A stretch of 64,000 nt of DNA from Acidimicrobiia bacterium (GTDB taxonomy: Bacteria; Actinomycetota; Acidimicrobiia; Spongiisociales; UBA11373). The notes beneath the pieces were generated by a model. It ran no database searches. It was not told where the DNA came from and saw nothing but the letters and a program-made list of their open reading frames with translations. The DNA lies in NCBI GenBank assembly GCA_040882645.1, contig JBBEAX010000055.1, forward strand, positions 3,589 through 67,588. The letters run 5' to 3'. The position numbers were made by a program, and so were the translations under genes. Positions 2,900-34,396 of this stretch are shown one piece after another. Numbering within the stretch: position 1 is the stretch's first letter; each line of letters starts with the position of its first letter.

Positions 2900-4006
2900 A
2901 TGGGCAAAGTAAGGGTGGCGATTGCCGGAGTCGGCAACTGCGCCAACTCATTGATTCAGGGCGTTTCGTATTACGCGAACGCCGAGGCGGGCACCACGGT
3001 CCCCGGCCTGATGCATGTCGAGCTCGGCGGCTATCACATCCGCGATATCGAGTTCGTGGCCGCGTTCGACGTCGACGCGACCAAGGTGGGCCAGGAGCTC
3101 ACCAAGGCCATGTGGACCGGACCGAACGACACCTACCGCTTCTCCGACGTGGTCGAGACGGATGTGATCGTCCAGCGTGGCCCCACTCTCGACGGTCTCG
3201 GCAAGTACTACCGCCTGACGGTCGAAGAGTCGGTAAGCGAGCCTGTCGACGTCGCCGCCGCCCTGCGGGAATCGAAGGCAGATGTCCTCGTGGCCTATCT
3301 CCCCGTCGGATCCGAGCAGGCGCTTCGCCATTACGCCGAGGCAGCGCTCGAGGCCGGAGTCGGCTTTGTGAACTGCATCCCGGTGTTCATCGCCAGCGAC
3401 CCCGTGTGGGCGCGGCGCTTCTACGACGCCGGACTGCCGATCATCGGTGACGACATCAAGTCGCAGGTGGGGGCCACGATCGTCCACCGCACACTTGCCC
3501 GGCTCTTCGAGGACCGGGGCGTGGTCGTCGAACGGATGAGCCAGCTGAACGTCGGCGGCAACATGGACTTCAAGAACATGCTCGAGCGCGAGCGTCTCGA
3601 GTCCAAGAAGATCTCGAAGACCCAGGCCGTCACCTCCCAACTCGAGAACGGGCTCCACGCCGACGATGTCCACATCGGGCCCTCGGACTACGTGCCCTGG
3701 CTCACCGATCGCAAATGGGCGTACATCCGGATCGAGGGACGGGCGTTCGGTGACGTGCCGCTGACGGCCGAACTCAAGCTCGAGGTGTGGGACTCGCCCA
3801 ACTCGGCAGGCGTCGTGATCGATGCAGTCCGCTGCATCAAGCTGGCCCTCGACCGGGGTGTCGGCGGACCGCTGCTGGCGGCATCCTCGTACTTCATGAA
3901 GAGCCCCCCGGTTCAGTTCCGCGACGACGACGCCCACGACAACGTCGAACGGTTCGCCGCCGGCGAGGATCCGACCAAAGCGGAACTCACCGAGTATCTG
4001 GGATAG
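2900..4006 (+). CDS. ino1: myo-inositol-1-phosphate synthase
   Basis: 368 aa with [26 protein letters not shown] and [14 protein letters not shown], typical of actinobacterial Ino1. Confidence 0.95.
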
Positions 4007-4027
4007 GCCTCGCTGCGCTCGGCCCGG

Positions 4028-4095
4028 CTGCCCGCTACCCGCTTCCCGCTGCCGGCAAGATCGGATTCGGAGCGGGTAGCGGGTAGCGGGTAGCG
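4028..4095. repeat. G-class heptad hairpin: CCGCTAC-type array (4028-4053) and inverted GCGGGTA x3 (4071-4095)
   Basis: CCCGCTACCCGCTTCCCGCT against the reverse complement of the right arm CCCGCTACCCGCTACCCGCT gives 1 mismatch in 20. It lies between the convergent ino1 and nfo. Confidence 0.8.
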
Positions 4096-4117
4096 ATTCC
4101 TCCCGGGCCAGGGATCC

Positions 4118-4879
4118 CTAAGTTCTTGCTCGCAACCAAGCGATATCCGCGCCCTGTTCCGCCGCCCCGCCGGGCGTTTCGACGACGGTGGGAACCCCGG
4201 CTGCCCGGACCACCGAGACCAACAACCCTTCTGGGATCATCCCCTCTCCGAGATTGGCGTGGCGGTCGCGGCTCGAACCGTGCGGGTCGCGCGAATCGTT
4301 GCAGTGGATCAAGTCGAGCCGGCCGGTGAGTCCGCGCACCCGATCGGGCAAGCCGTCCAGTTCCGCCCCGGACGCCCAGGCGTGGCAGGTGTCGATCACC
4401 ACCCCAACATCGAAGGCGCCGATCGCCTCCCACAAGCGCCCGAACCCGTCGATCTCCCGCAGGACCGCATTGCCCCCGCCCGCGGTGTTCTCCAACAGCA
4501 CCGGAACCGTCAACTCGACCGAGTCGAGCGCCTTGCGCCACCGGTCGTACCCGACGGCGACATCCTCATCGTCGCCGACGTGGCCGCCGTGAACGATGAC
4601 CCCGGCGGCGGCAATGGCCCCCGCCGCCGCCAGGGTGTCGGCGAGGATCTTGCGGCTCGGGATCCGAATCCGGTTGTTGGGTGAGGCGACGTTGATGAGG
4701 TAGGGGGCGTGTACGTAGATCGGCAGGCTCGACGCGGCCAGTGCCGCCGCATCGGGGCGGCGAGGCGGCGCCTTCCACGACTGCGGGTTCGACAGGAAGA
4801 TCTGGACGAGGTCTGCATCACGAGCGGCGGCCTCGGACAGCGGCTCGGCGGTACCGACGTGGGCCCCGATCGGGATCAC
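4118..4879 (-). CDS. nfo: Deoxyribonuclease IV / AP endonuclease family 2
   Basis: TIM-barrel endonuclease IV motifs ([40 protein letters not shown]). GTG 4879 was chosen because the upstream 78 codons of the track ORF are Arg/Pro-rich and the GTG overlaps the upstream stop (GTGA). Confidence 0.85.
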
Positions 4880-5496
4880 TCGTCGGGCCCGGCGACTCGG
4901 GGGCGATCGGCCCGCTGGTCGAGGAGGGGAGCCACCATGTGGGCGGGTCGATCCCACTCCTCCGTATACAGGTGGATCCACGGCGGATCGGGTTCGGCAC
5001 CCGATGGATCCGAGGGCAGCAGGCCCATGTCTCGCAGGCGGATCGAGAGCACCGGCACCGGCGCTCCTTCGCTGTCGATCACGCCGGAGCGGACCTCGAC
5101 CACCTCCTCCCACGGAAACAGGCGCGCCCGCCGTCCGGGACCGTCGACCCGGACCGAAATCCCCTCATCGTCCGCCTTCAGCAAGATCGTCGGCCGGACG
5201 AGTTCCTTCAACCCCCAGATCATCGCCGCGGACCCGCCCACCAGGAGGGCCGACCCGACCACCAGGTCACGCCGCCGTTGGGCGCGGCCGTCCTGGGTCC
5301 ACGACTTGGTGACGACATCCACCGACTCGCCGTTCTCGTTGATGGTGGTGCCGACGACAGATTCGGTGAATTCGGGTTCGGGGAACCAGCGATAGGAAAC
5401 CATCATGTCGACCGCCAACAGGATCGCCGGCACCGCAAACGCCGCATACGCCAGCAAGCGAAGAGGTGAACGGGCGATCGAGACGCTGACGGGCAT
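4876..5496 (-). CDS. Hypothetical membrane protein (2 TM helices plus a cytoplasmic domain)
   Basis: Last 206 codons of the 4876..5898 ORF, starting at ATG 5496 ([10 protein letters not shown]). The upstream part of that ORF reads through heptad repeats (RFAMRDAQCAMRDAS) and is not credible coding sequence. Confidence 0.65.
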
Positions 5497-5530
5497 GGCT
5501 GGAGGGTAGATCAGCAAGCCCCACTTTCGG

Positions 5531-5681
5531 TACGCAATGAGCAATGCGCAATGAGCGACCTGCGGTCCGCGTCCGTGGAAGTTTGACGCGTCGCGCATCG
5601 CGCATTGCGCATCGCGCATTGCGAATCGCCCCCCGGCGCAGACCACTCTTGTCTTGCTACTTGACTCTTGACTCTTGCTAC
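5531..5681. repeat. Composite heptad element: R array (5531-5557), inverted R' array (5588-5629), K' array CTCTTGA-type (5646-5681)
   Basis: The R/R' arms pair with 3 mismatches in 25. The R'+K' part is the inverted counterpart of 9685-9782. The uppS stop TAG (5678-5680) lies inside the K' array. Confidence 0.8.
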
Positions 5682-6490
5682 TTTCCGAACCTGCGCTCTC
5701 GCCGGGTGTAGTCGCGTAGGGCGCGTAAGAAGTCGACCCGGCGGAAGCCGGGCCAGTGGACGTCGACGAACGAGTATTCGGCATACGCCGCCTGCCACAG
5801 GAGGAAGCCCGACAGGCGGGACTCCCCGCTCGTGCGGATGACCAGATCCGGGTCGGGCAGATCGGCGGCGTACAAGTGGGCGGCGATCGCCCCTGCATCG
5901 ATCGAATCGGCTAGTTGCTCGGCCTCCACCCCGTCGGCGGCCAGCTTCGCCACCAGCTCGCGGACCGCGTCCACGATCTCCTGGCGGCCGGTGTAGGCGA
6001 GCGCCAGGTTGAGCCGCCGTCGCCCGCGCGGCGAAGACGCCGACAACTGCCGCGCCGCCTGCTGGAGCCGGTCGGGCAGCAGGTGGATGCTGCCGATGAC
6101 ACCCACCTGCAGGTCCTCGCCTCCGATTGCCGGCAGCCGCTCGAACAGGTCGACCAGGACGTCGTAATACGGCTCTAGTTCGGCCGGAGGGCGTTCGAGG
6201 TTCTCCTGCGACAGCAGCCAGCAGGTCATCACCGGAACGTCGAGGTCACCGCACCACCCGAGGAACTCGGCGAGCTTGTCCATCCCCGCCCGGTACGACG
6301 AGGCGTAGTCGCGAAGGCCGGCGATCCGGGCGAAACGCCGGTGGCCGTCGAGGATCACCCCGACGTGTCGAGGGAGCTTCTCCCGGTCCAGCGATCGAAG
6401 GAGGCGCTCCTCGTAGAGCCGATACAGCGGCCGGGTCAGCACGGTCCTACGCGGCGACGGCCCGGAACGCCTGTCAGCAGGTTCCGTCAT
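5678..6490 (-). CDS. uppS: Isoprenyl transferase (cis-prenyl diphosphate synthase, UppS family)
   Basis: 270 aa from ATG 6490 with HVGVILDGHRRFA and IRTSGESRLSGFLLWQAAYAEY. Which UppS paralogue this is cannot be decided from sequence alone. Confidence 0.85.
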   Translation of the reverse strand: MTEPADRRSGPSPRRTVLTRPLYRLYEERLLRSLDREKLPRHVGVILDGHRRFARIAGLRDYASSYRAGMDKLAEFLGWCGDLDVPVMTCWLLSQENLERPPAELEPYYDVLVDLFERLPAIGGEDLQVGVIGSIHLLPDRLQQAARQLSASSPRGRRRLNLALAYTGRQEIVDAVRELVAKLAADGVEAEQLADSIDAGAIAAHLYAADLPDPDLVIRTSGESRLSGFLLWQAAYAEYSFVDVHWPGFRRVDFLRALRDYTRRERRFGK

Positions 6491-6509
6491 GATCCTGGGG
6501 CGAGTCGCT

Positions 6510-8102
6510 TCATGGAAGCCCACATACATCGATGCCGTCGAGGAACCCAGCCTTGAAGGACTCGAACCGCCTGAAAGCACTCGCGTAGCCCTCCGTGCCC
6601 GCGGGGGCCGAAGTCTGCAGGAAGCCGCTGATGCCCTCGTCGAGATCGCCCGCCGTGAGGATGATCCCGGTCGGGTTGTCCTCGAAGGTGATGGCCGCGG
6701 TCCACACCCCGGTGAGGCAGTCGCGCTGCAGGGTGGCGGGAACTCCCTCGGTCTCGAGGCCGGCCTTGTGCTGCACCGCCTCGTGCCACTGGGTGGCCAG
6801 CACCAACCCGAGGGCAAAGTCGCCGATCTCCGTGTAGAGGCCGGGGAACAGCTGTTCTTCGTCCCAGGCGACGAAGTCCTCCGGCGGGCAGTAGAACACG
6901 TTGCCCTCGTAGAACGCGGTGTCGGAGGTGAATCCACCGCACGATGGAAACTCACCCGACGAGGGGAAGTAGGGCACGGTGCGGTCGACCGGATCCCACG
7001 CCTCGCCGAAAACCTCCGGGTAGACGAGCGCCCAGAACGCCTCGAGCGAGCCGATCAGCTGCGAGGCGGCCTCGGCATAGGGAAGGTCGACGCTCCCATC
7101 CTCTCCGACAAAGGGGACATGGAAGAACGGGGGCGGGGTGGCCTCGAATGTGGCGCAGTGCTCGGTTCCCAGTGAGTAGCCATCGAAGAAAGCACTCAGG
7201 CGCGCGAACGAGTTGCCATGGGCGTTGGCGCCGGTAGGGGCGCTACCGAGGGAGTCGCCGATGAGCACGAAGCCCGCCATCCCTTCCTCGAGGTCGCCAG
7301 CGTCCAACTCGAGGATGTCGCTTTCAAGGCGATCGACTCGCCCGGTCCACGCCCCGGCGAGACAATCGGCCTGCAATTCGGACACGATCGTCGGAACCGC
7401 GTCATCCAATCCGAAGCGAGCCTGGATCGCATGACCCCACTCATGGGCGAGGACGAGGGCGACCGTGAAGTCGCCGTACTCCGCGTAGAGCGGCGCCATC
7501 AGGCCCTCCTGGTCCCACTGCACGCTGTCGTTGAGCTGGCAATAGAACGCGTTGACCTCGAACTGGTCGCGTGACAGGGGACCGCCACAGATCGGCACGT
7601 CGCCTTCGGAGACGAAATAGGGACCGAACGCCGTGACCGGCTCGTAATCCACCCCGAACACCTCCGGCAGCTCGGCACTCCAGAACTGCTCGAGGTCGGT
7701 GATGGTGAAATCGACGAGCGTCTCGATGTCGGTGATCGGTTGGAACCCGCCTGCGGTGGTAGTGGTGGTGTCGCCCGTACTGCGTTGGCAGATGTCCACG
7801 ATCTCGACCACGACGGGATGCGATTCGATGTCGCCCTCCGTCTCGAGGTCGAGGAAGTCCTGGAGCGACATCCGCTCCTGGAACTCGTCGATGGTGCAGC
7901 GGCAGAACGCCACAGTCCCATCGACCGAACACCCCTCGACATACGAATCCACGATCTGGGTCGGATACTCGAACGCGGCAGCGGTCGTCGAGGTGGTGCC
8001 GGCGCCCGTCGTCGTCGTGGTGGTGATGACCGACCCACCATCGTCGCCGCAGGCCGCCGCGACCAACCCCAGGGCGAGTATCAGTACCAGGCTCTTCTTC
8101 AC
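6510..8102 (-). CDS. Lipoprotein with two tandem YpfJ-like neutral zinc metallopeptidase domains
   Basis: GTG 8102 is preceded by GGAGG. The signal/lipobox is KKSLVLILALGLVAAAC, followed by a poly-Thr linker. Domain 1 carries HEWGH. Domain 2 is a clear internal duplicate (EVFG..PV..PYF..CGG..NAFYC..D) but reads ATQWHEAVQH at the same position. Confidence 0.8.
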   Translation of the reverse strand: MKKSLVLILALGLVAAACGDDGGSVITTTTTTGAGTTSTTAAAFEYPTQIVDSYVEGCSVDGTVAFCRCTIDEFQERMSLQDFLDLETEGDIESHPVVVEIVDICQRSTGDTTTTTAGGFQPITDIETLVDFTITDLEQFWSAELPEVFGVDYEPVTAFGPYFVSEGDVPICGGPLSRDQFEVNAFYCQLNDSVQWDQEGLMAPLYAEYGDFTVALVLAHEWGHAIQARFGLDDAVPTIVSELQADCLAGAWTGRVDRLESDILELDAGDLEEGMAGFVLIGDSLGSAPTGANAHGNSFARLSAFFDGYSLGTEHCATFEATPPPFFHVPFVGEDGSVDLPYAEAASQLIGSLEAFWALVYPEVFGEAWDPVDRTVPYFPSSGEFPSCGGFTSDTAFYEGNVFYCPPEDFVAWDEEQLFPGLYTEIGDFALGLVLATQWHEAVQHKAGLETEGVPATLQRDCLTGVWTAAITFEDNPTGIILTAGDLDEGISGFLQTSAPAGTEGYASAFRRFESFKAGFLDGIDVCGLP

Positions 8103-8452
8103 TTCCTCCACCCCTTCCACGGCCCCGGCCGGGGCGCGGTGTCCAGTGTCGTCTCGGCAGTCAACGGTTCGCCATGCAGGTCCCGAATTCGGCCCCACAT
8201 CCAGACGTCGAATGCCTCGGATGAGTCGGCCATGGCTCGTACGGCGGCGGCGGGATCACGACCCTCGGAGAAGATCACCGCAAGGTGGGTGTCGCCGTGA
8301 TCGACGACCGACACCACCTGGCGGGTGATGCCACGCCGCCGTTGCGACTGAGCCCATTCAATGCGGCGGGGTCCCATCAGCTCGGCATGGAAAGCATGCC
8401 ACTCGTCGAGCTTTCCCGCCGCGATGGGCCGGACGGTGATGGTCGCGGCCAC
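8099..8452 (-). CDS. Hypothetical small protein
   Basis: Start chosen at GTG 8452, 4 nt after GGAGGA; the track ORF begins at TTG 8503. The stop overlaps the lipoprotein GTG (GTGA). I recognise no family. Confidence 0.55.
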   Translation of the reverse strand: MAATITVRPIAAGKLDEWHAFHAELMGPRRIEWAQSQRRRGITRQVVSVVDHGDTHLAVIFSEGRDPAAAVRAMADSSEAFDVWMWGRIRDLHGEPLTAETTLDTAPRPGPWKGWRK

Positions 8453-8521
8453 TGATCCTCCAACTGGCTGTGACGCGGCACAGTAGCCAGTCCTCGGATT
8501 CAACTGGGAGCCACCACAGCC

Positions 8522-9631
8522 TCAGCCCACCACTCGCGCGTAGAGCGACCGAAGCCGCCCCGCCCACCGATCCGCGCCGAACTCCTCGTCATACCGCTCG
8601 CGACCGTGCTTGCCCATCGCGGCCCTCTCGTCGGGGTCGCCGGCGAGACTCGCCACCGCGGCGGCAAGAGCGGCCGCATCCCCCGGAGCCACCAGGATCC
8701 CGGCGCCCGGAGTCACGATCTCGGACACCCCACCCACATCTGAGGCGATGACGGGGCGAGACGCGGCGATGGCGTGGATGAGCGCGGTCGGCAGCGCGTC
8801 CGCCAGCGAGGGGTGTACCACCAGGTCGGCGGCCGCCAGGATCCGATCGACGTCCTCCCGAAAGCCGGCGAAGACCACCCGCCCCGGCGGAAGGTCGGCC
8901 GCCAGGGACCGCAATCGGCCTTCCAGCGGTCCGTCGCCCACCAGCAGAAAGACGACGCCGGCAGTGGAACGCGCCGCCTCGAGTAACACCTCGTGACCCT
9001 TCCCCGGGCGCATGACTGCGATCGTGGCGGCAACCACGGCATCGGGGGCGATCCCCAACTCGGCCCGCACCGCGGCGCGGGTACCTTCAAGCGGCTCACC
9101 GGGGTCGGGCACTCCGTTGCGGATCGTCACCACCCGACCGGGTTCCTCGGCGAACTCCTCCAGGTACCAACCCCGCATCGCGTCCGAAACGGCCACCGTG
9201 GCCGCCGCGGTCCGCCTCCGGGACGTCGCCGCGAGGTTCCGCTTGAAGAGGGCGATACCCGAGACATCTCGTTCGATCACATGGAGGGTGGAAACGTGGG
9301 GGATCCCGCTCTGCAAGGCCACCCTGCCCGCGATGAAATCGGCGTGCTTGAGGTGGGAGTGGAGCACGTCAGGCCGTTCGGTTTCGACCAACCGGCGCAG
9401 CCGGCGGGGACCGCGCGGATCCCACCAAGCACGGAGATCGAGCGAGGCCACTCGGGCTCCGGCGGCGCGCAGCAGCTCGGGATAGCAAAGGCCGGCGGTG
9501 GGGAGCATGCTCACCACCGCCAGGTCGATGCCGGCGCCGGCCGCCACCGAGGCCAGGTCGACGAGAACATGCTCGGCCCCACCGGGGCCGAGGTCGTGAA
9601 TCAGATGAAAGACGCGCAGCGGCGAAGTCAC
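8522..9631 (-). CDS. Glycosyltransferase family 4 (GT-B, group 1)
   Basis: 369 aa with N-terminal HDLGPGGAEHVLVDL and C-terminal GT1 motifs (VHPSLADALPTALIHAIAASRPVIASDVGGVSEIV). Confidence 0.9.
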   Translation of the reverse strand: MTSPLRVFHLIHDLGPGGAEHVLVDLASVAAGAGIDLAVVSMLPTAGLCYPELLRAAGARVASLDLRAWWDPRGPRRLRRLVETERPDVLHSHLKHADFIAGRVALQSGIPHVSTLHVIERDVSGIALFKRNLAATSRRRTAAATVAVSDAMRGWYLEEFAEEPGRVVTIRNGVPDPGEPLEGTRAAVRAELGIAPDAVVAATIAVMRPGKGHEVLLEAARSTAGVVFLLVGDGPLEGRLRSLAADLPPGRVVFAGFREDVDRILAAADLVVHPSLADALPTALIHAIAASRPVIASDVGGVSEIVTPGAGILVAPGDAAALAAAVASLAGDPDERAAMGKHGRERYDEEFGADRWAGRLRSLYARVVG

Positions 9632-9684
9632 GGAAAGAGCATCGGCCCGATCTGTCGTGGTCTAAAGAGCGACCCGGGGCGGAA

Positions 9685-9835
9685 GTAGCAAGAGTCAAGA
9701 GTCAAGAGTCAAGAGAGGTCTGCTGGCGATGTGGACGCGATTCGCAATTACGCGATTCGCAATACGCGATACGCGATACGACAGAACGGACCGCTCGCAG
9801 CGGGGCCTGCGGCCGCCTTGGGCGGCCTGCAGGGC
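9685..9835. repeat. Composite heptad element: K array GTCAAGA x3 (9685-9718), R array (9735-9782), GC hairpin (9801-9835)
   Basis: Bases 9685-9706 are the exact reverse complement of 5660-5681 (22/22). GGTCTGC and GCGATTCGCAAT are also shared with the inverted left copy. It lies in the divergent GT4/SDR intergenic region. Confidence 0.85.
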
Positions 9836-9884
9836 CGCCGTCCCACGGCGAGTAGCAGTGGGTATCACCTAGCCTCGCGCGGCT

Positions 9885-11324
9885 ATGCGAATCCTCGTCA
9901 CGGGTGCCACTGGTTACATCGGAGGTCGCCTCGTGCCGCGGCTGCTCGACGCCGGGCATCAGGTCCGTTGCCTCGCTCGCACCCCCGCCAAGCTCGCCCA
10001 GCACCCGTGGAGGCGCGAGGTGGAGGTCGTCGCCGGCGACGTGCTGCACGCCCCCTCCCTGAAGGAAGCGGCCACCGGCTGCGACATGGCGTTCTACCTG
10101 GTCCACTCGGTGGCCGCCGGCAAGGGCTTCGCCGACCTCGACCGCACCGGCGCCGACAACTTTCGCCTCGCCGCCGAGGATTCCGGGCTGCGGAGGATCG
10201 TGTTCCTCGGAGCGCAGGGGGCGGCCAACGGTGTCCATTCCCAAGTGGCTGCGGTTCGCCACGAGGTGGGTGCAATCCTCGCCTCGGGAGTGGTGCCGGT
10301 CACCGAGATCCGGGTGGGGCCGGTGATCGGGTCGGGATCGCGGTCGTTCGAGATGGTGCGGTCCCTCACCGAGGTCAGCCCGATCCTCCTCGCCCCGCGC
10401 TGGGTACGCAACGAGTGCCAGCCGGTCGGGGTGAGAGACGTCATCGAGGCCCTGTCCTCTGCCGCCACCGACGACTCGGCCCTCGGCCGCGTCGTAGAGC
10501 TCGGCGGGCCCGAAGTGCTCACCTTCTTGCAGATGATGAAGATCTACGCCGACGAGGCCGGCCTGCGGAAGCGGCGGGCGATACCGGTGCCGATGACCGC
10601 CGCCCGGCTGTCGTCGCTGTGGGCGGGGCTGGTGACCCCATTGCCGGCGCGGGTGGCGCGTCCTTTGATCGAGGACCTGCGATCGGGGCTCGTGCCCGAG
10701 TCGCCCGAGCCGCTGGTGGACGACCCCACCCCCTACCGTGTCGCCCTTCGCCGGGCCTTGTCGCGGCTCCCGGGCGGGGTGATCACCCGCTGGTCCGATG
10801 CCGAATCCCACCCGCCTGCGCCGGAACCGAACCGGTCCTGGCGGGGCGAGATCGTCTATATGGACCGCCAGGTGGTGCCCACCGACGCCGAAACCGCTCA
10901 CCTCTTCTGGGCCTTCAGCCGCATCGGCGGCAGTGTCGGCTACTACGGGCTCGATTGGGCGTGGCGGATACGCGGCCTTCTCGATCGGGCCGTTGGCGGT
11001 CCGGGACTGCGGCGCGGCCGACGGCATCCCAACGAGCTGCGGGTGGGCGAGGTCGTCGACTGCTGGCGGGTCGAAGAAGTGGAACCGGGGAGGCGCCTCC
11101 GCCTACGCGGCGAACTAAAGATCCCGGGTGAGGCTTGGCTCGAGTGGGAGACCCGTGACACCGAGTTCGGGGCCGACCTGATCCAGACCGCGTGGTTTCG
11201 CCCGCGGCGGTGGCGGGGCCGGCTCTACTGGTACGGAATGCTCGCCGCCCACCGCATCGTCTTCCCGCGAATGGCGCGGCGCATCGCCGCTGCCGCCGAA
11301 GAACGCGGGTACTCGACGCGGTGA
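9885..11324 (+). CDS. NAD(P)-binding SDR-family protein fused to a DUF2867-like domain
   Basis: N-terminus MRILVTGATGYIGGRLVPRLL (Rossmann fold). The C-terminal half (WRVEEVEPGRRLRLRGELKIPGEAWLEWE) looks like DUF2867. Confidence 0.8.
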   Translation: MRILVTGATGYIGGRLVPRLLDAGHQVRCLARTPAKLAQHPWRREVEVVAGDVLHAPSLKEAATGCDMAFYLVHSVAAGKGFADLDRTGADNFRLAAEDSGLRRIVFLGAQGAANGVHSQVAAVRHEVGAILASGVVPVTEIRVGPVIGSGSRSFEMVRSLTEVSPILLAPRWVRNECQPVGVRDVIEALSSAATDDSALGRVVELGGPEVLTFLQMMKIYADEAGLRKRRAIPVPMTAARLSSLWAGLVTPLPARVARPLIEDLRSGLVPESPEPLVDDPTPYRVALRRALSRLPGGVITRWSDAESHPPAPEPNRSWRGEIVYMDRQVVPTDAETAHLFWAFSRIGGSVGYYGLDWAWRIRGLLDRAVGGPGLRRGRRHPNELRVGEVVDCWRVEEVEPGRRLRLRGELKIPGEAWLEWETRDTEFGADLIQTAWFRPRRWRGRLYWYGMLAAHRIVFPRMARRIAAAAEERGYSTR

Positions 11325-14509: not shown

Positions 14510-16372
14510 ATGGAACCCAAAGAACTCCTCGGCAGGATCAAGGCCGAGGTTGCAGCACCAGCAGAAGAGGTGACGTTCGCCCGGTACCTCGAGATGGTGC
14601 GGGACGACCCCCGACTCGCCCGACTATCGCACGCACTGATCGCCGACATGCTCGAGGCTTCCGGTGTGTCCACCGGGCCCGACGGCGAGGAGCGCTTCGA
14701 CCTTTTCGAGGGCGGGCTGTTCGGTCAGCAGTGGGTCATCCAGCAGGTGGTCGATTACTTCCGGGCGGCCGGATGCCGCCTCGATGTCCGCAAGCGGATC
14801 CTGCTTCTCGTCGGCCCTCCCGGGTCGGGCAAGTCGACCCTCATCAACACCATCAAGGAGGGTCTCGAGGCGTACACCAAAACCGACGACGGCCGGGTGT
14901 ACGCGGTCAAGGGCTCTCAGATGCACGAGGACCCGCTGCGGCTGATCCCCAATGAGCTCCGCGACGAGACCGGCGTCTACATCGAAGGGGACCTCAATCC
15001 CGAGGTGCGTTGGTTGGTGGAATACGTCTACCAGGGCGACATCACCAAGGTGCCGATCCAACGGATCCACTACAGCATCGCCCGCGGCACCGGCTTCGGC
15101 ACCTTTGTCGCCACCGACCCCCGCTCGGAGAACCTTGCCCGCCTCGTCGGTGAGGTGGAGCAGAGCCTCCTCGATCCCACCGACCCGGGATCGGTGCGGC
15201 GCGCTTACCGATTCGACGGCGAGCTGAACGCGGCCCACCGGGGGATGGCCGACCTGCTCGAAGTCTTCAAGATGGACGAACGCTTTCTGGCGGTGCTGCT
15301 GAGCCTCAGCCAGGAACAGATCATCAAGACGAGCGGTCCCGGGACCATGTACGCCGACGAGGCCTTGGTCGCCCAGAGCAACCTCGCCGAATATCAGGAG
15401 CTCGTCGACAACCCGCGGGCGGCCGCGATGCTCGACCGCCTCGTGGTGGTGAAGGTTCCGTTCGTGCTGTCGGTGCGCGACGAGATCCGCATCTACGAAA
15501 AGATGCTCTCGGGCGCCGACCTCGGCCGGCGCGACGTCTCGCCGCTCGCCCTCCACACCGCCGCCACCTTCGCAGTGCTGACCAGGCTGGAGCACCCGGG
15601 CGGAGGCATGCAGGGCCTGATCCGCAAGCTCCGGCTCTACGACGGCCGCTACGGGCCTCACGGCGGCTCGGAGGACGCCCGCAAGCTGCGGGACAAGGCG
15701 CCAAACGAGGGCATGACCGGACTGAGCCCCCGCTACGTGATCAATCGCCTGTCGCAGGTGGCCGGCAACACCAAGGGTTGCCTCGATGGCATCGCGGTGC
15801 TCGAAGCGCTCTGGGAGGGTCTCCCCCAGCGGGCCGGGTTCACCGAAGACGAACGCGAGCGTTGGAGCTCACTGCTCTCCGCCACTCAGGCCGAGTACGA
15901 CGAGATGGTGCAGTTGGAGATTCGCAAGGGGTCGGTGCTCGGGTTCAAGGACTCGGCCGAGAAGATGGCGAAGACGGTTCGGGAGGAGGTGGCAGCGTGG
16001 AAGTCCCAGGGCGACGCGGCCAACACCCCCACGCTGCGACGGTTGGAGCGGCTCATCGACGTCCCCCAGTACGGACGAGATCGATTCCGCAATGCGCTCT
16101 CGGCAGCGCTGGAGTTGAAGGGGCAGCGGGGTCGCCCGCTCCACACCCGCCATCCCTTGTTGGAGGATGCGATCCAGCGGGCACTGCTGCCGTCGTGGAG
16201 CGACGTAGCCAAGAAGCTCGACGACCAGGGCGACGGCATCGTCCAGGGCATCCAGGCTTCCGGCTGGCGCAAGGCCTGTGCCGAGCAACTGGTCGAGTAC
16301 GCCCACAAGTTCATCGGATCGAAGCGCGACCGGCGGGACGAGGGCGAGAAGAAGCCGACCTGGTACTCCTGA
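14510..16372 (+). CDS. prkA: PrkA family AAA+ serine protein kinase
   Basis: ATG 14510 follows AGGAG. Long collinear similarity to B. subtilis PrkA / E. coli YeaG (RLDVRKRILLLVGPPGSGKSTL, YAVKGSQMHEDPLRLIP, AYRFDGELNAAHRGMADLLEVFKMDERFL). Confidence 0.9.
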   Translation: MEPKELLGRIKAEVAAPAEEVTFARYLEMVRDDPRLARLSHALIADMLEASGVSTGPDGEERFDLFEGGLFGQQWVIQQVVDYFRAAGCRLDVRKRILLLVGPPGSGKSTLINTIKEGLEAYTKTDDGRVYAVKGSQMHEDPLRLIPNELRDETGVYIEGDLNPEVRWLVEYVYQGDITKVPIQRIHYSIARGTGFGTFVATDPRSENLARLVGEVEQSLLDPTDPGSVRRAYRFDGELNAAHRGMADLLEVFKMDERFLAVLLSLSQEQIIKTSGPGTMYADEALVAQSNLAEYQELVDNPRAAAMLDRLVVVKVPFVLSVRDEIRIYEKMLSGADLGRRDVSPLALHTAATFAVLTRLEHPGGGMQGLIRKLRLYDGRYGPHGGSEDARKLRDKAPNEGMTGLSPRYVINRLSQVAGNTKGCLDGIAVLEALWEGLPQRAGFTEDERERWSSLLSATQAEYDEMVQLEIRKGSVLGFKDSAEKMAKTVREEVAAWKSQGDAANTPTLRRLERLIDVPQYGRDRFRNALSAALELKGQRGRPLHTRHPLLEDAIQRALLPSWSDVAKKLDDQGDGIVQGIQASGWRKACAEQLVEYAHKFIGSKRDRRDEGEKKPTWYS

Positions 16373-16433
16373 ATCAAGAATCAAGAATCAAGAAGCGGGA
16401 CTGGCGTCATCTTGAATCTTGACTCTTGTATCC
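16371..16433. repeat. K-class heptad hairpin: (GAATCAA)x3 - 12-nt loop - TCTTGAA TCTTGAC TCTTG
   Basis: Arms 16375-16395 and 16408-16428 pair at 18 of 21 positions. It lies between the convergent prkA and cca, and both stop codons fall inside the element. Confidence 0.85.
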
Positions 16434-17815: not shown

Positions 17816-17834
17816 GGGCCAACTCTAAGGCAGG

Positions 17835-18030
17835 CCGCTGCCCGCTACCCGCTACCCGCTGCCAGCAAGAGCCTTTGACTCGCTTGGCCGCCGCACGGCC
17901 CCTCCGGCTCGCTTCGCTCGCCACCTCCCCCTACTGGGGAGGAAACGCGTGAGACAAACTTCTTGCGGGAGGCGGGTAGCGGGTAGCCGGTAGCGTCTCT
18001 TGCAGGCAGCGGGCCGGCCGGAGGCCGGCC
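17835..18030. repeat. Composite element: G array CCGCTAC x3 + GCAAGAG (17835-17873), 60-nt GC-rich element with CCTCCCC-ctact-GGGGAGG hairpin (17887-17948), inverted G' arrays (17961-18013), GGCCGGCC-gga-GGCCGGCC hairpin (18012-18030)
   Basis: Direct reading. It lies between the cca start and the pilT stop. The inner 60 nt recurs inverted at 53870-53937. Confidence 0.8.
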
Positions 18031-20970: not shown

Positions 20971-20981
20971 ACAGAGAGGCA

Positions 20982-21045
20982 GGAATCAAGAATCAAGAAT
21001 CAAGACCGTGGCAGGTTCGAGTCTTGAATCTTGGCTCTTGATTCC
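20982..21045. repeat. K-class heptad hairpin: GGAATCAAGAATCAAGAATCAAGAC - 14-nt loop - GTCTTGAATCTTGGCTCTTGATTCC
   Basis: A 25-position stem with 22 Watson-Crick pairs, 1 G-U and 2 mismatches (paired by hand). It lies between the convergent GNAT and DegV genes. Confidence 0.9.
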
Positions 21046-21915: not shown

Positions 21916-21962
21916 TTCAACCTGCAGTCTCGCGCGCGTTTCGTGTGCTCGCGCTGTGAGGG

Positions 21963-22050
21963 GCAATTCGCAATTCGCAATACGCAATACGACGAACCCG
22001 GGCTCCAGCATTCGGCACGCTCGCTGCGCATTACTCATTGCGCATTGCGC
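21963..22050. repeat. R-class heptad hairpin: GCAATTC x2, GCAATAC x2 (21963-21994) and inverted CATTGCG-type array (22026-22050)
   Basis: Direct reading. The junction ATACGACGAA and loop CCGGGCTCC are shared with 40977-41078. It lies in the divergent degV / ECF-sigma region. Confidence 0.8.
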
Positions 22051-28555: not shown

Positions 28556-28584
28556 TTCGCTACCCGCTACCCGCTACCCGCTAC
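28556..28584. repeat. G-class heptad array (CGCTACC x4), left flank of the parS pair
   Basis: tcgctacccgctacccgctacccgctacc read directly, 19 nt upstream of the rsmG start codon. Confidence 0.8.
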
Positions 28585-28605
28585 CAAGGGATGGGAGCTG
28601 ATATT

Positions 28606-28621
28606 GGTTTCACATGAAACG
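28606..28621. other. parS-like site GGTTTCACATGAAACG (13/16 to TGTTTCACGTGAAACA)
   Basis: Compared by eye with the canonical ParB site. Mismatches fall at both end positions and at the central G>A. Confidence 0.6.
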
Positions 28622-28640
28622 ACTGCACGCGGGTGAGAAC

Positions 28641-28656
28641 CGTTCCACGTGAAACA
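28641..28656. other. parS site CGTTCCACGTGAAACA (15/16 to TGTTNCACGTGAAACA)
   Basis: Near-perfect match, 35 bp centre-to-centre from the first site, in the rsmG-jag intergenic region about 1.5 kb from parB. Confidence 0.85.
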
Positions 28657-28727
28657 TTGAAGGGGGCCGAACATGGGACACCACAAAGAATCATGGGATA
28701 TCACAGACCGGTCCCGCGTCATTTGCC

Positions 28728-28797
28728 GGGGGTAGCGAAGGGCGATCGCAGCAGGCAGCGATTGTCAGCGGGTAGCGACTGTCAGCGATTTCGCTAC
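28728..28797. repeat. Inverted G'-class region (GGGGTAGCG, GCGGGTAGCG) with an internal direct repeat GCGA[TC]TGTCAGCG x2, right flank of the parS pair
   Basis: Direct reading. It contains the GCAGGCAGCG motif shared with 18003-18012. The jag stop TAG (28794-28796) lies inside it. Confidence 0.7.
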
Positions 28798-30557: not shown

Positions 30558-30823
30558 TGAACCCCTATCTCATCGCGGTGCGGAACCGGATCGACTCCGC
30601 CTTCTCTCCACGGATGGCATCGCCCGATCCGCTTCACGGCCATCCAACTGCCGCGCATCGCGCCCCACTCGTCGATGGCTTCGAACGCGTATCCCGAGCA
30701 TGTGGGCTGGTACCGGCAGCGCCGTCCGACCAGGGGAGAGAGCGCCTTCCGATAGAGGATGATCGGTCGCTGCAGCCACCAGCCGGGCTGGTAAGGCTTC
30801 AGCGTTCCCTTCACATCTTCCAC
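30554..30823 (-). CDS. yidD: Membrane protein insertion efficiency factor YidD
   Basis: [15 protein letters not shown] and GRCHPW motifs. Overlaps the yidC start by 4 nt. Confidence 0.9.
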
Positions 30824-30826
30824 CGC

Positions 30827-31129
30827 TCACTCCTGTTCCATCGTCGCCCTTTGGGCCCAGGCCACCAGCGCCTCGAACGGCGCTCGGACTGCTGCCGCAG
30901 AGGCGATCACCACATACTCGCGGCCCTCCCGCAGCGGGACGAGGCGTAGCGCCTGGCGCAACCGCCTCTTGGCCCGATTCCTTCGGACCGCGTTACCCAC
31001 CGCCCGGCCGGCGACTACCGCCACCCTGGGAGTGCCCGGCTCGCCCGGCGCGGCGAAGACGGTGATGCCGCCGACGCGCCGACGCGTCCCGACCCGCCGC
31101 ACTCTCCCGACGTCGGAACTCTTTCGCAG
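30827..31129 (-). CDS. rnpA: Ribonuclease P protein component, with the start probably non-canonical
   Basis: RNR motif (AVGNAVRRNRAKRRLR). The track ORF starts at GTG 31102, but the conserved N-terminal LRKSSDVGRV segment lies upstream in frame. The frame is open back to 31258 with no ATG, GTG or TTG. Candidates are CTG 31127-31129, ATC 31151-31153 and ATA 31163-31165. Confidence 0.8.
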   Translation of the reverse strand: MRKSSDVGRVRRVGTRRRVGGITVFAAPGEPGTPRVAVVAGRAVGNAVRRNRAKRRLRQALRLVPLREGREYVVIASAAAVRAPFEALVAWAQRATMEQE

Positions 31130-31161
31130 CGGGGCGTAGGGCGCCGCGGCGATGCTGCGAC

Positions 31162-31296
31162 CTATGCGGAAAGCCGGCGTCGGCCCTTGAGGCGCCGGCG
31201 CTTGAGGATTGCGCGGCCAGCCCGCGTCCGCATACGCAGCCGGAAGCCATGCCGCTTCTTACGGCGGCGAACATTCGGCTGATAGGTGCGCTTCAT
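31162..31296 (-). CDS. rpmH: 50S ribosomal protein L34
   Basis: Hand translation gives [44 protein letters not shown]. Not in the ORF track because it is under 60 aa. Confidence 0.95.
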
Positions 31297-31750
31297 GAGG
31301 GAGTCCCAAGAGAAGGAAGAGGATGCTTTCGGGTGAGGTTACGAAGAGTTGGTCGACTTTGTCAAAGGTGAGGCGCGCCCGCAGAAGCCGTTCGCGAGAA
31401 ATGCCAATGAGTCGCGAAAGATCACTTACCGGCCTGATCGTCCACACCTTCGTCTCCAACACTACGAACTCGCGAAATCCATCTCTGATTGTCGTTGATC
31501 CATAAGGGGTTTCGCTGGCCGCCAGCCCGGTCGCCAGTGGATAAGCCGCGTTTTGTCATTCTTGTGGGGCGCGATGGCCGTTTCATATACTCGCCGTTCA
31601 CCGGTCCCCCCAACCGGTCGACTTCCCAGGTCATCGACCCAGCGGCGCGCTGGGTGGGGCAAGAGTAAGAGCGGGAAATCCGCCCTTCTCCACAGGTGTG
31701 GATACCCCTGTGGAGAAAGATTCGATACATGAGAGCACTCGAGGGAGGAC
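31297..31750. other. oriC candidate, left part / dnaA promoter region with DnaA boxes
   Basis: Boxes with 8/9 matches: TCGTCCACA 31438-31446 (+), TTATCCACT 31536-31544 (-), TTCTCCACA 31686-31694 (+), GTATCCACA 31697-31705 (-), TTCTCCACA 31709-31717 (-). The last three form an 11-bp inverted repeat (TTCTCCACAGG...CCTGTGGAGAA) 34 nt before the dnaA GTG. The region is relatively AT-rich. Confidence 0.6.
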
Positions 31751-33112
31751 GTGGAAGCCCATCCGGCCGCTGAGAGTTGGGACCAGTTTCGCCAATCGCT
31801 CCGATCAAGAGTCACTCCAGTCACCTGGAGGACCTGGTTGGAGGGCCTGTCTCCCCAAACCTTCGACGCAGGTGTCGTCCGCATCCTCGCCCCCAGCGAG
31901 TTCCATCTCCGCTGGGTGAACGAGAAGTATCGGCCGATCATCGAGGAGTCGGCCGCCGCCGTGTACGGCGACGGGGTCGTCGTCGAGATGGCGGCGAGAG
32001 AGATGCCGCTGTTCGACAGCCCCACCGTCGACGATGAGCTGGGGCCCGACACGCTCACCGAGACTCCCATTCCGGTGGAGGGTGAGGACGATCCGCTCGT
32101 CCCCAAGTACTCGTTCGAGAACTTCGTGGTAGGCCCGTCCAACCGCTTCGCCCACGCCGCCGCCCTCGCCATCGCCGAGCAGCCCGGAGGGCACTACAAC
32201 CCGTTGTTCATCTACGGCGGAGCCGGCTTGGGAAAGACCCACCTGCTCCAGGCGATCGCCCAGCACTGCGCCGACCTGAATCCCCGCCTCGAGGTCTGTT
32301 ACCTGACCTCGGAGGAGTTCTTCAACGGGTTCATCGATGGCATTCGGCGCAAGCGGATGGACGAGTTCAAGGCCCGCTACCGCAGCGTCGACATGCTGCT
32401 GCTCGACGACGTTCAGTTCCTGGAGGGCAAGGAGCAGATCCTCGAGGAGTTCTTCCACACCTTCAACTCCCTGTACGAGGCAGGCAAGCAGTTGGTGTTC
32501 TCGTCGGACCGGCCACCCAAGAGCCTTTCGAGCCTCGAAGACCGCATTCGGAGCCGTTTCGAGTGGGGCCTCACCACCGACATCCAGCCCCCCGACGTCG
32601 AGACCAGGCTGGCGATCCTTCGCAAGAACGCGGCGTTTGCGCCGGTGGTGGTGCCCGAGGCGGTGCTCGATTTCATGGCCAACCGGGTGGTCGACAACAT
32701 CCGCGAACTCGAAGGGGCCTTGACCCGAGTGACTGCATATGCCGCGTTGACCCATCAGCCGATCGACCTCGAGATGGCCGAGGACGTACTGCAGGATCTC
32801 GGGCCGGCGCACAATGCCATGCCGATCAGCCCCGGCAGGATCCTGGCGGCCTCCTCCGAATCGTTCGGGGTATCGATCGGCGACCTCGAGAGCCCGAGCC
32901 GCAAGCAGCCGCTGGCGCGGGCCCGCCAGGTCGCCATGTACATCTGCCGCGAACTCACCGACCTGTCTCTTCCCAAGATCGGCAGCCTGTTCGGGGGCCG
33001 GGACCACACCACCGTGCTCCACGGGGTGAACAATGTGGCTCGGCTCATGAAGGAAGATCAGCAGCTCTTCGATCGTGTCACAGCCCTGTTGCAAAGTCTG
33101 AGGAAATCGTGA
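31751..33112 (+). CDS. dnaA: Chromosomal replication initiator DnaA
   Basis: AAA+ Walker [24 protein letters not shown], and the domain IV HTH (DHTTVLHG). Confidence 0.95.
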
Positions 33113-33303
33113 GCATTCATCCACAGTCTCCCCAGGGCACCCGGCAGGGTGTTTACAACCTCCGCCAGTCGTCCCCTGGGGTGGGGACGACGAATCGGCG
33201 CCTGACCTGGCCCGATGGCGGCTTCTCCACAATCCACACCCCCTACTACTGCTACTACTTGTTCTTTCAATAAATACAGTCGAAGAAGAGAGAGGAACAC
33301 CCT
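33113..33303. other. oriC candidate, right part (dnaA-dnaN intergenic): DnaA boxes plus an AT-rich putative unwinding element
   Basis: TCATCCACA 33117-33125, TTCTCCACA 33223-33231, CAATCCACA 33230-33238. Tandem 9-mers CTACTACTG/CTACTACTT 33243-33260. AT-rich run cttgttctttcaataaatacagtcgaagaag at about 33258-33290. This is the usual oriC location in Actinobacteria. Confidence 0.6.
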
Positions 33304-34383: not shown

Positions 34384-34396
34384 ACGAGTCGATCGC

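What the first reader, a model, noticed from the sequence alone, without database searches (positions are those of the whole stretch)
5588..9782. About 95-bp composite inverted repeats bracket a four-gene envelope operon
The left copy is 5588-5681 (R' array, GCAGACC, K' array). The right copy is 9685-9782 (K array, GGTCTGC, R array). They are inverted copies of the same composite, and 5660-5681 is the exact reverse complement of 9685-9706 (22/22). Between them lie exactly four co-oriented minus-strand genes: a cis-prenyltransferase, the dual Zn-peptidase lipoprotein, a small hypothetical and GT4 (5678-9631). Possible meanings: (a) if transcription starts upstream of 9718, the mRNA 5' and 3' ends are complementary and could pair; (b) the repeats are a substrate for inversion or excision of the cassette; (c) they are the footprint of a composite mobile unit. 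No recombinase is nearby.
Basis: partly seen in the sequence, partly recalled or inferred. Interest (0 to 1): 0.65.

Follow-up and report, generated by a model that had tools for sequence, protein, structure and literature searches.

The report
Copied heptamer-repeat modules flanking four genes
The two inverted ~95-base repeats are real, but they are two copies of a fast-changing 7-base tandem-repeat module that litters the gaps between genes in this Acidimicrobiia genome, not the ends of a mobile, invertible or specially regulated four-gene cassette.

Summary
5588-5681 and the reverse complement of 9685-9782 align at 81/103 positions, with a 22/22 exact inner end. This is the best-matching pair among the 15 repeat-bearing intergenic regions of the window.

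The pair is not special to the operon. The window comes from an Acidimicrobiia MAG and carries 22 period-7 tandem arrays where 0.6 are expected. They fall into three families, lie almost only between genes, and mostly form local hairpins downstream of genes.

The left R' array is one arm of a local R-loop-R' hairpin directly after the UppS stop codon. That hairpin is kept in five lineages. The K part plus the GCAGACC linker is a 54-nt addition seen only in the window lineage.

The right composite also exists in a 94%-identical lineage whose UppS-downstream site has neither K nor R. Gene order and orientation are the same in all relatives. The variable unit is GT4 plus 221 nt upstream (8522-9852), not the 4-kb block.

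A 92%-identical sister genome has an equally long inverted composite pair (106/136) around four different genes.

Best reading: ectopic copying between array-bearing intergenic regions. The mobile-unit reading is refuted, inversion or excision is unsupported, and 5'-3' mRNA pairing is not conserved and remains untested.

The parts
5645..5683 (-). Left K array. It reads CAAGAGT/GTAGCAA units on the minus strand and K' on the plus strand. It overlaps the UppS stop codon (5678-5680). It is part of a 54-nt segment, about 5624-5677, that is absent from the sister genome.
5638..5644 (-). Linker GGTCTGC (GCAGACC on the plus strand), left copy.
5590..5629 (-). Left R-family array. It is the 5' arm, in the operon-sense RNA, of the local hairpin that follows UppS. 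This is the 'R' array' of the finding.
5528..5558 (-). Partner R-family array, the 3' arm of the same local hairpin. The loop is 5559-5589.
   Evidence: (I2, I3, I5)
9680..9716 (+). Right K array, (CAAGAGT)x3.9, preceded by CGGAAGTAG, which resembles the last codons and stop of UppS. It has no local complement.
9717..9723 (+). Linker GGTCTGC, right copy.
9735..9783 (+). Right R-family array with a 14-nt super-period, ACGCGATTCGCAAT. It has no local complement. 9751-9785 is 35/35 identical to the array after UppS in lineage E (L016, L025).
9803..9840 (.). GC-rich imperfect hairpin in the divergent intergenic region, next to the right composite.
8522..9852 (-). GT4 gene (8522-9631) plus 221 nt upstream, including the right composite. 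This is the segment missing from lineage H (L026, L027) and, as to GT4, from L001-L005.
8453..8521 (-). GT4-to-small-ORF spacer. It holds TTGAATCCGAGGACTGGCTACTGTGCCGCG, conserved in all lineages including those without GT4. It is a candidate internal promoter or regulatory site, followed by GGAGGA and a GTG start at 8452.
5678..6529 (-). Cis-prenyltransferase (UppS-like). The start is uncertain: the Pfam match covers the C-terminal ~224 aa, and relatives are called at 238-286 aa.
6510..8120 (-). Zn-peptidase (PF04228) protein with an internal duplication, about 536 aa.
8099..8452 (-). 117-aa hypothetical protein.
4876..5496 (-). 206-aa hypothetical protein, co-oriented and syntenic immediately downstream of UppS in all relatives.
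4118..4879 (-). Xylose-isomerase-like TIM-barrel gene, the last of the co-oriented run. It is followed by the G-family hairpin 4027-4098 at the convergent junction.
9885..11324 (+). Divergent NAD-binding/DUF2867 gene. TAGCCT, 9 nt upstream of its ATG, is conserved in all lineages.

Best explanation
The two composites are paralogous copies of modular heptamer-array DNA. This is a genome-wide, rapidly turning-over class of intergenic short tandem repeats in this Acidimicrobiia lineage.

Shown:
- Arrays gain and lose 7-nt units.
- Arrays are replaced between close relatives.
- They sit almost only between genes, preferentially downstream of gene ends, and usually as local inverted pairs that fold into long hairpins.

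The left locus is such a hairpin (R-loop-R'), sitting directly after the UppS stop codon. It most likely acts on the RNA as a 3'-end protecting, pausing or terminating structure without a U-tract. That function is inferred.

The composite similarity arose when a stretch of about 60-100 nt was copied between the UppS-downstream region and the GT4-upstream region. The stretch comprises part of an R array, a spacer, the unique linker GCAGACC, the K array and about 9 nt of flank. Both regions already carried R-family arrays in opposite orientation. The copying would have been by ectopic gene conversion or template switching anchored in array homology. Both the mechanism and its direction are inferred.

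The pair as a pair has no demonstrated function. That it encloses four genes follows from where two array-prone intergenic regions happen to lie.
For: Genome-wide class
- There are 22 period-7 arrays against 0.6 in block shuffles, and none at periods 8-12.
- Three unit families recur, as local inverted pairs, at 4027/4068, 5533/5587, 16367/16408, 17833/17965, 20979/21020, 21961/22029, 40976/41046 and 52278/52327.
- Arrays lie in 5 of 6 convergent, 7 of 21 co-directional and 2 of 10 divergent intergenic regions.

Local hairpin
- The left region folds at -82.7 kcal/mol, z = -3.0, with K left largely unpaired.
- A long hairpin starts within a few nt of the UppS stop in lineages W (the window), C, D, E and F (84-92% nt identity to W), despite different loops and unit numbers. 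Lineage B has a different array hairpin at the same place.
- W and C differ by one 7-nt unit in each arm.

Copying
- The linker GCAGACC is array-linked only at these two loci.
- Identity runs through ATTGCGAATCGC, the linker, K' and GCTACTT(T)CCG.
- The sister genome (92% nt identity) lacks exactly 54 nt at the left site and has no K' at the right site.
- Lineage B (94%) has the right composite with fewer units.

Same process elsewhere
- Sister L009 has its own inverted composite pair, 5886-6010 and 9827-9957, with 106/136 identities, 3.8 kb apart, around RimK, RimB-like, DUF1295 and DUF2867 genes.

Unit-number change between near-identical contigs
- L001 against L004, and L015 against L021.
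Against: - No transcript data exist, so the RNA role of the hairpins is inferred.
- No U-tract terminator consensus is found, and hairpins without U-tracts are not proven terminators.
- The direction of copying is unresolved. The CGGAAGTAG tag at the right copy suggests left-to-right. The phylogenetic distribution (right composite in W and B, left K in W only) fits right-to-left equally well.
- Linking L012/L013 (right site) to L017/L018 (left site) as one lineage rests on the same samples and the same identity level, not on a single contig.
- Only 64 kb of this genome and 21 kb of the sister genome were examined.
- A joint function of the pair in the window lineage cannot be excluded by comparative data alone.
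Confidence: 0.6

Rival explanations
1. Long-range 5'-3' pairing. A transcript starting upstream of the right composite carries K'/R' in its leader and K/R after UppS. The ends pair, closing the GT4-to-UppS mRNA into a loop and affecting its stability or translation.
For: - The predicted intermolecular duplex is about -62 kcal/mol for the K part and -157 kcal/mol for the whole composite. The cofold is -189 against -127 kcal/mol for the two ends folded separately.
- Both copies are oriented so that one minus-strand RNA would be self-complementary.
- An R'-type array upstream of GT4 is present in lineages W, B, C and F.
Against: - The TSS is unknown and no promoter consensus is found.
- K and the linker are absent from both sites in the sister genome.
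- Lineage B has the right composite but no complement after UppS: inverted score 16, against 87 in W.
- In C and F the R match is no better inverted than direct, because the left site holds both arms.
- The left R array is already engaged in a strong local hairpin.
- A conserved promoter-like element downstream of GT4 would give transcripts lacking the leader.
Confidence: 0.08
2. Expression tuning by repeat number. The arrays upstream of GT4 act as a simple-sequence-repeat rheostat. Changes in unit number alter promoter geometry or leader structure of GT4 and/or the divergent DUF2867 gene. The similarity to the left locus is incidental.
For: - The right composite lies in a divergent promoter region 53 nt from the GT4 start.
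- Unit numbers differ between lineages W and B in both arrays.
- This intergenic region carries arrays of changing type in W, B and C and in the GT4-less contigs L001, L004 and L005. GT4-less lineage H (L026/L027) has a 108-nt spacer with no evident array.
- Heptanucleotide repeats are a recognised class of phase-variable repeat in Haemophilus influenzae (titles and abstracts of PMC8262952 and PMC12721329; the papers were not read in detail).
Against: - Arrays of 3-6 units are short for efficient slippage.
- No within-population unit-number variation at this site was seen: L012 and L013 have the same unit numbers.
- The same array types elsewhere lie mostly downstream of genes, not in promoters.
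Confidence: 0.1
3. Substrate for DNA inversion or excision. Recombination between the inverted copies flips the 4-kb segment, or removes it, as a switch for envelope genes.
For: A 22-bp perfect and 32-bp 91% inverted match lies 4 kb apart, at about the minimum length for homologous recombination (own knowledge).
Against: - The orientation is the same in every contig that spans a junction: L009, L010, L011, L012, L013, L014, L026, L027 and L001-L006.
- Inverted repeats do not give excision.
- The only indel is 8522-9852 (GT4 alone), with ends unrelated to the repeats.
- No recombinase family lies within +/-10 kb in the sister genome.
- Most relatives lack the repeat pair altogether.
Confidence: 0.04
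4. Footprint of a composite mobile element, with terminal inverted repeats that brought in the four genes.
For: Inverted terminal-like copies of about 95 nt flank a gene block.
Against: - The small ORF, peptidase and UppS genes lie between the same neighbours in relatives at 74% amino-acid identity that lack the repeats.
- The left copy's R' array is half of an older local hairpin.
- The outer flanks, AGTTTGAC at 5580-5587 and CAGAACGG at 9783-9790, show no target-site duplication.
- No transposase is nearby.
- No related sequence was found in plasmids.
Confidence: 0.02

Closest known systems
Cyanobacterial STRR (short tandemly repeated repetitive) sequences
   Same: - Units of 7 bp in short tandem runs, dispersed in intergenic regions.
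- Several unit families per genome.
- Able to form hairpins, for example between hupS and hupL.
- Function unknown, with transcript stability or termination proposed (PMC2670836).
   Different: - Different phylum (Acidimicrobiia, 67% G+C) and different units (CAAGAGT, CGCGATx, GGGTAGC).
- Here most arrays come as local inverted pairs that make long stems of about 20-35 bp.
- Multi-array composites are copied between loci.
- No description for Acidimicrobiia was found in the searchable library.
TAACTGA heptamer direct repeats of marine Beggiatoaceae and some Cyanobacteria and Bacteroidetes
   Same: Intergenic heptamer direct repeats of 2-6 copies, abundant and non-random, with a suspected post-transcriptional role (PMC4679880).
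   Different: - Those are one dominant unit, mostly in forward orientation just upstream of start codons, and almost never inverted (one inverted case in 170 sets).
- Here there are several units, mostly inverted pairs, mostly downstream of genes.
REP / REPIN elements of Proteobacteria
   Same: Dispersed extragenic hairpin-forming repeats, often between co-directional or convergent genes. REP hairpins can stabilise upstream mRNA (own knowledge; PMC3116915 listed).
   Different: - REPINs are copies of one sequence including the loop, and are linked to a RAYT transposase.
- Here the arms are tandem heptamers and the loops are unrelated between loci.
- No transposase could be looked for outside the window.
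Invertible promoter or gene segments (invertons) and composite transposons
   Same: Inverted repeats flank a DNA segment.
   Different: No recombinase or transposase, no orientation or whole-block presence polymorphism, and no target duplication. The repeats belong to a genome-wide array class.

Membership tests
STRR-like dispersed heptamer tandem repeats | Repeat unit of 7 nt in short tandem runs | tested here: met
   TRF finds period 7 (or 14) at both copies. There are 22 period-7 arrays against 0.6 expected, and none at periods 8-12.
STRR-like dispersed heptamer tandem repeats | Many dispersed copies, confined to intergenic DNA | tested here: met
   Of 29 arrays, 26 lie in or within 12 nt of a listed intergenic region. 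The other three lie at a 15-nt convergent junction (16408-16429) or at the window edge.
STRR-like dispersed heptamer tandem repeats | Hairpin-forming potential through inverted arrays | tested here: met
   Eight local inverted array pairs. The fold of 5497-5690 on the minus strand is -82.7 kcal/mol, z = -3.0.
STRR-like dispersed heptamer tandem repeats | Cyanobacterial host and the named STRR unit sequences | tested here: not met
   The host is an Acidimicrobiia MAG. The units CAAGAGT, CGCGATx and GGGTAGC are not the published STRR units (own knowledge of STRR1-3).
Composite transposon / TIR-bounded mobile unit | Terminal inverted repeats | tested here: met
   81/103 identity in inverted orientation.
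Composite transposon / TIR-bounded mobile unit | Transposase inside or adjacent | tested here: not met
   The four enclosed genes have Pfam prenyltransferase, Zn-peptidase and GT4 matches, or none. No transposase family lies within +/-10 kb in the sister genome.
Composite transposon / TIR-bounded mobile unit | Target-site duplication at the outer ends | tested here: not met
   The outer flanks AGTTTGAC (5580-5587) and CAGAACGG (9783-9790) are unrelated.
Composite transposon / TIR-bounded mobile unit | The whole unit is present or absent between genomes, or sits at different sites | tested here: not met
   The block is syntenic in all relatives. Only GT4 plus 221 nt (8522-9852) varies.
Invertible DNA switch | Both orientations present in populations or relatives | tested here: not met
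   There is one orientation in all spanning contigs. Assemblies could hide minor variants.
Invertible DNA switch | Site-specific recombinase encoded nearby | tested here: not met
   None among the Pfam families of genes within +/-10 kb in the sister genome.
Intrinsic (Rho-independent) terminator | GC-rich stem followed by a U-tract | tested here: not met
   No terminator-like site in 3900-10100. The hairpin is followed by GCGUACCGAAAG.
REP / REPIN | Copies share arms and loop | tested here: not met
   The loops of the K hairpins at 16367-16429, 20979-21045 and 52278-52350 are unrelated to each other.
REP / REPIN | Associated RAYT transposase in the genome | not testable with these tools
   Only 64 kb of the genome is on hand, so RAYT presence could not be assessed.
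Functional 5'-3' UTR pairing element | Both halves lie on one transcript | not testable with these tools
   There are no transcript data, and no promoter consensus was found.
Functional 5'-3' UTR pairing element | Complementarity is conserved or covaries among relatives | tested here: not met
   Inverted-match scores are W 87, C 45 (equal to the direct score), F 23 and B 16.

The most novel reading that the evidence does not exclude
The heptamer arrays are not passive slippage debris. They would be an actively maintained system in this Acidimicrobiia clade. Inverted arrays would be built, lengthened in step on both arms, and copied between nearby intergenic regions. They would serve as length-tunable hairpins without U-tracts that set RNA 3' ends. 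In the window lineage, the newly copied K module would additionally give the GT4-to-UppS transcript complementary ends that pair and couple expression of the envelope genes.
Probability: 0.1. Interest if true: 0.65.

Novelty: new member of a known kind. Interest (0 to 1): 0.3.

Why it matters
The specific claim does not hold: this is not a repeat-bounded, possibly invertible or self-pairing envelope cassette. That saves follow-up on a false lead.

What remains is a clean natural example of how short tandem-repeat modules turn over and are copied between neighbouring intergenic regions at 92-94% genome identity. The class in question, heptamer-array hairpins in uncultured soil Acidimicrobiia, was not found described in the papers I could search.

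If these hairpins mark RNA 3' ends, they would help define transcription units in high-G+C Actinomycetota. Classical U-tract terminators are scarce there (own knowledge). Such pairs could also be mistaken for mobile-element ends by annotation. One near-identical MAG has a scaffold gap over the left locus, which may or may not be caused by the repeats.

Tried and rejected
- Rfam, at gathering thresholds on the whole window and at E<=1 on 3900-10000: no family at either locus. The only hit is an AdoCbl riboswitch at 43274-43419.
- tRNA/tmRNA scan: nothing.
- Promoter and terminator consensus scan of 3900-10100: nothing.
- Exact-protein look-ups for the window's own contig: not on record in the gene-position index. 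The rest of this genome therefore could not be censused. The window's proteins are in NCBI as MEX1208173-MEX1208227, Acidimicrobiia MAG.
- L011, a 99.7%-identical MAG contig, has a 100-N scaffold gap replacing window 5239-5726. It gives no information on the left composite.
- Plasmid search with the left locus: only a 40-nt chance-level match in Burkholderia.
- Viral scan for (CAAGAGT)n: nine low-G+C contigs unrelated to this organism. They show that the same unit forms arrays elsewhere, but they do not bear on the origin of this pair.
- I considered that an inversion with breakpoints in two hairpin loops produced the orphan K halves. I rejected this because it predicts direct, not inverted, composites, and because gene order equals that of the sister genome.
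- I considered that GGAAGTAG is an array-linked motif. It occurs only at these two sites in the window.
- The literature searches found no description of such repeats in Acidimicrobiia.

Full report
OBSERVATION

Both copies are present as described.
- On the plus strand the left copy reads R' array (ATCGCGC/ATTGCGC units, 5590-5629), spacer, GCAGACC (5638-5644), then K' array (5645-5683).
- The right copy reads K array (9680-9716), GGTCTGC (9717-9723), spacer, then R array (9735-9783).
- A global alignment of 5588-5681 with the reverse complement of 9685-9782 gives 81 identities in 103 columns. 5660-5681 against 9685-9706 is 22/22.
- The local alignment extends to 5591-5687 and 9680-9776.
- Among all pairs of 15 array-bearing intergenic regions of the window, in both orientations, this pair scores highest: 100 against 68 for the next.
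- The linker heptamer is next to arrays only at these two sites.

The two copies are therefore related by descent, not by independent assembly from common units.

The window belongs to an uncultured Acidimicrobiia MAG (NCBI proteins MEX1208173 and onward, contig of 98 kb).

It is full of short tandem arrays with a 7-nt period.
- There are 22 such arrays, against 0.6 in composition-preserving block shuffles.
- None occur at periods 8-12, and periods 4-6 are near or below expectation.
- The arrays fall into three unit families: K (CAAGAGT/CAAGAAT), R (CGCGATx/CGCAATx) and G (GGGTAGC).
- They lie in intergenic DNA, in 5 of 6 convergent, 7 of 21 co-directional and 2 of 10 divergent regions.
- They usually occur as an array, a loop of 10-100 nt and the complementary array. 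Eight such local hairpin pairs are at 4027/4068, 5533/5587, 16367/16408, 17833/17965, 20979/21020, 21961/22029, 40976/41046 and 52278/52327.
- No Rfam family matches them, and they lack U-tracts.

THE LEFT LOCUS

The R' array of the finding is one arm of a local hairpin. Its partner is 5528-5558 (pairs I2, I3, I5).
- In the operon-sense (minus-strand) RNA the order after the UppS stop codon is K, GGTCTGC, R, loop, R'.
- The region folds at -82.7 kcal/mol (z = -3.0), with the R/R' stem dominant and K largely unpaired.

The genes continue in the same direction beyond this locus, through a 206-aa ORF (4876-5496) and a TIM-barrel gene (4118-4879). The run ends at a G-family hairpin at the convergent junction 4027-4098. 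The repeats therefore do not bracket a transcription unit.

RELATIVES

Contigs were recovered from eight lineages. Identities are nucleotide identity to the window unless stated (identities).
- L011: 99.7%.
- Lineage B (L012, L013, L017-L019): about 94%.
- Lineage H (L026, L027): about 92-93%.
- Lineage C (L009, L010; assembly GCA_040878325.1): about 92%.
- Lineage D (L015, L020-L024): about 91%.
- Lineage E (L016, L025): roughly 83-87%.
- Lineage F (L014): 84%.
- Lineage G (L001-L006): about 74% amino-acid identity.

Four findings follow.

(i) Synteny. The DUF2867 gene lies divergent from [GT4], small ORF, peptidase, UppS, 206-aa ORF and TIM-barrel gene. Order and orientation are the same everywhere.

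(ii) The left site.
- A long hairpin starts within a few nucleotides of the UppS stop in W (the window), C, D, E and F. The arms are R-family, but the loops and unit numbers differ.
- W and C share the loop and differ by one 7-nt unit in each arm.
- The K array with linker and spacer is a 54-nt segment present only in W.
- Lineage B has a different array hairpin there, with neither K nor R.

(iii) The right site.
- W and B share the composite R'-GCAGACC-K'-GCTACTTCCG. B has two fewer R units and one fewer K unit.
- C has (AGTCTCC)x7, CCGxCCG units and an R' array, but no K'.
- F also has an R' array.

(iv) The variable unit. Lineage H lacks window 8522-9852, that is GT4 plus 221 nt upstream including the right composite. 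G-lineage contigs L001-L005 also lack GT4, while L006 has it. The variable unit is GT4, not the 4-kb block.

A CONTROL FROM THE SISTER GENOME

In L009 the best pair of intergenic regions is 5886-6010 against 9827-9957.
- It is inverted, with 106 identities in 136 columns, and the copies are 3.8 kb apart.
- It is a composite of R units, a unique linker, GCGGAAG units and CTTCTTGCTGGAG.
- Four other genes lie between the copies: RimK, RimB-like, DUF1295 and DUF2867.

This equals the window's pair in length, identity, spacing and number of enclosed genes. The GT4-upstream region thus resembles the RimK-downstream region in one genome and the UppS-downstream region in the other. That is what repeated ectopic copying between nearby array-bearing regions would produce.

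HOW THE PAIR AROSE (INFERENCE)

Both sites carried R-family arrays in opposite orientation before the K module appeared, as shown by C and F. A tract running from R homology through the linker and K into GCTACTT(C)CCG was then copied from one site to the other.

The direction is unresolved.
- The right copy carries CGGAAGTAG, which matches the last UppS codons and stop (GGAAAGTAG in W, GGGAAGTAG in C). This favours copying from left to right in the common ancestor of W and B, followed by the replacement of the left site seen in B.
- The distribution (right composite in W and B, left K in W only) fits copying from right to left in W equally well, resolved at the 10-nt microhomology.
- The spacer of the left copy resembles B's right spacer more than W's own. 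The event is therefore not very recent.

THE THREE PROPOSED MEANINGS

(a) RNA end pairing.
- The duplex would be very stable: about -62 kcal/mol for K alone.
- It needs a TSS upstream of 9716, which cannot be shown.
- The complementarity is not conserved: inverted-match scores are W 87, C 45 (equal to the direct score), F 23 and B 16.
- The left R array is engaged locally.
- The element TTGAATCCGAGGACTGGCTACTGTGCCGCG lies downstream of GT4 and is conserved even in genomes without GT4. It probably drives the small ORF, peptidase and UppS genes on its own.

(b) Inversion or excision.
- No orientation variant appears, and no recombinase lies within +/-10 kb of the sister locus.
- The only indel has other boundaries.

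(c) Mobile unit. This is refuted by synteny, by the lack of a target-site duplication and by the lack of a transposase.

WHAT IT RESEMBLES

The closest described class is the cyanobacterial STRR sequences.
- These are 7-bp tandem repeats in intergenic DNA that can form hairpins, for example between hupS and hupL.
- Their function is unknown, and transcript stability or termination has been suggested (PMC2670836).

The TAACTGA repeats of Beggiatoaceae are another heptamer class, but they are direct, single-unit and upstream of start codons (PMC4679880).

The present arrays share the defining features of STRRs except for the host and the unit sequences. I file them as a new member of that kind. 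The searches I ran found no paper describing them in Acidimicrobiia.

VERDICT

The repeat pair is real and non-random. It is a by-product of array turnover rather than a structural or regulatory boundary of the envelope genes. Interest in the specific finding is low to moderate. The genome-wide heptamer-hairpin class is the more interesting object.

Noticed in passing
window-wide, e.g. 2133-2254, 4027-4098, 16367-16429, 17833-17995, 20979-21045, 21961-22050, 28556-28790, 40976-41078, 46163-46259, 52278-52350: Intergenic heptamer tandem arrays of three families (K, R, G), mostly as local inverted pairs forming hairpins. There are 22 period-7 arrays against 0.6 expected. They occur in 5 of 6 convergent junctions. 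Many G-type stems end on the loop side with GCAAGAG/CTCTTGC, which resembles the K unit.
   Followed up: partly
L009 5886-6010 and 9827-9957: The sister genome has its own ~130-nt inverted composite pair (106/136 identity), 3.8 kb apart, around RimK, RimB-like, DUF1295 and DUF2867 genes. This pair is not seen in the window.
   Followed up: yes
window 8522-9852: GT4 with 221 nt of upstream DNA is an indel polymorphism. It is absent from L026/L027 (92-93% nt identity) and from L001-L005, and present in L006, L009, L012-L014.
   Followed up: partly
window 8465-8500 (minus strand): TTGAATCCGAGGACTGGCTACTGTGCCGCG between GT4 and the 117-aa ORF is conserved in all lineages, including those without GT4. 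It is a candidate promoter (TACTGT as a -10 element) or regulatory site.
   Followed up: partly
L001 1615-1645, 4208-4232, 4324-4350; L002 and L003 NAD/small-ORF intergenic region: In the more distant lineage a ~25-nt element, GATGAGGCGTCAGCCGAAGAGCCATGA, occurs in 2-3 copies per intergenic region, next to heptamer arrays (CATCTGA, CCGCCTC) or GC-rich hairpins. L001 and L004 differ by one CATCTGA unit.
   Followed up: no
L016 134-168 and L025 157-191 vs window 9751-9785: The R array directly after UppS in lineage E is 35/35 identical to the R array of the window's right composite, although the surrounding genomes are only about 83-87% identical.
   Followed up: partly
L011 3222-3321: A 99.7%-identical MAG contig has a 100-N scaffold gap replacing window 5239-5726, the region holding the left composite. 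The assembly broke at or near the repeat locus.
   Followed up: no
L028-L036 (IMG/VR contigs), e.g. L029 9208-9290: Exact (CAAGAGT)n arrays occur in nine low-G+C (31-52%) viral contigs. L029 has a K-loop-K' hairpin of the same design. Several arrays lie about 50 nt upstream of a start codon.
   Followed up: partly
window 43274-43419, with 43217-43234: An AdoCbl riboswitch (56.5 bits) is preceded by a short R'-like array (TTGCTCA x2.6).
   Followed up: no
window 30558-40344: Replication-origin neighbourhood: a 1280-nt intergenic region upstream of dnaA (31751-33112), then dnaN (33304-34383) and gyrA (37909-40344). No heptamer arrays lie in the long dnaA-upstream region.
   Followed up: no
window 9868-9887: TAGCCT lies 9 nt upstream of the DUF2867 gene's ATG and is conserved in all lineages. 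This suggests a leaderless or near-leaderless transcript.
   Followed up: no
D and E lineage loops, e.g. L015 2079-2222: The hairpin loop after UppS contains GGAAGTAG, a second copy of the UppS terminal codons plus stop. The first R array and part of the loop are thus flanked by an 8-nt direct repeat. This may be a trace of how the array was inserted.
   Followed up: no
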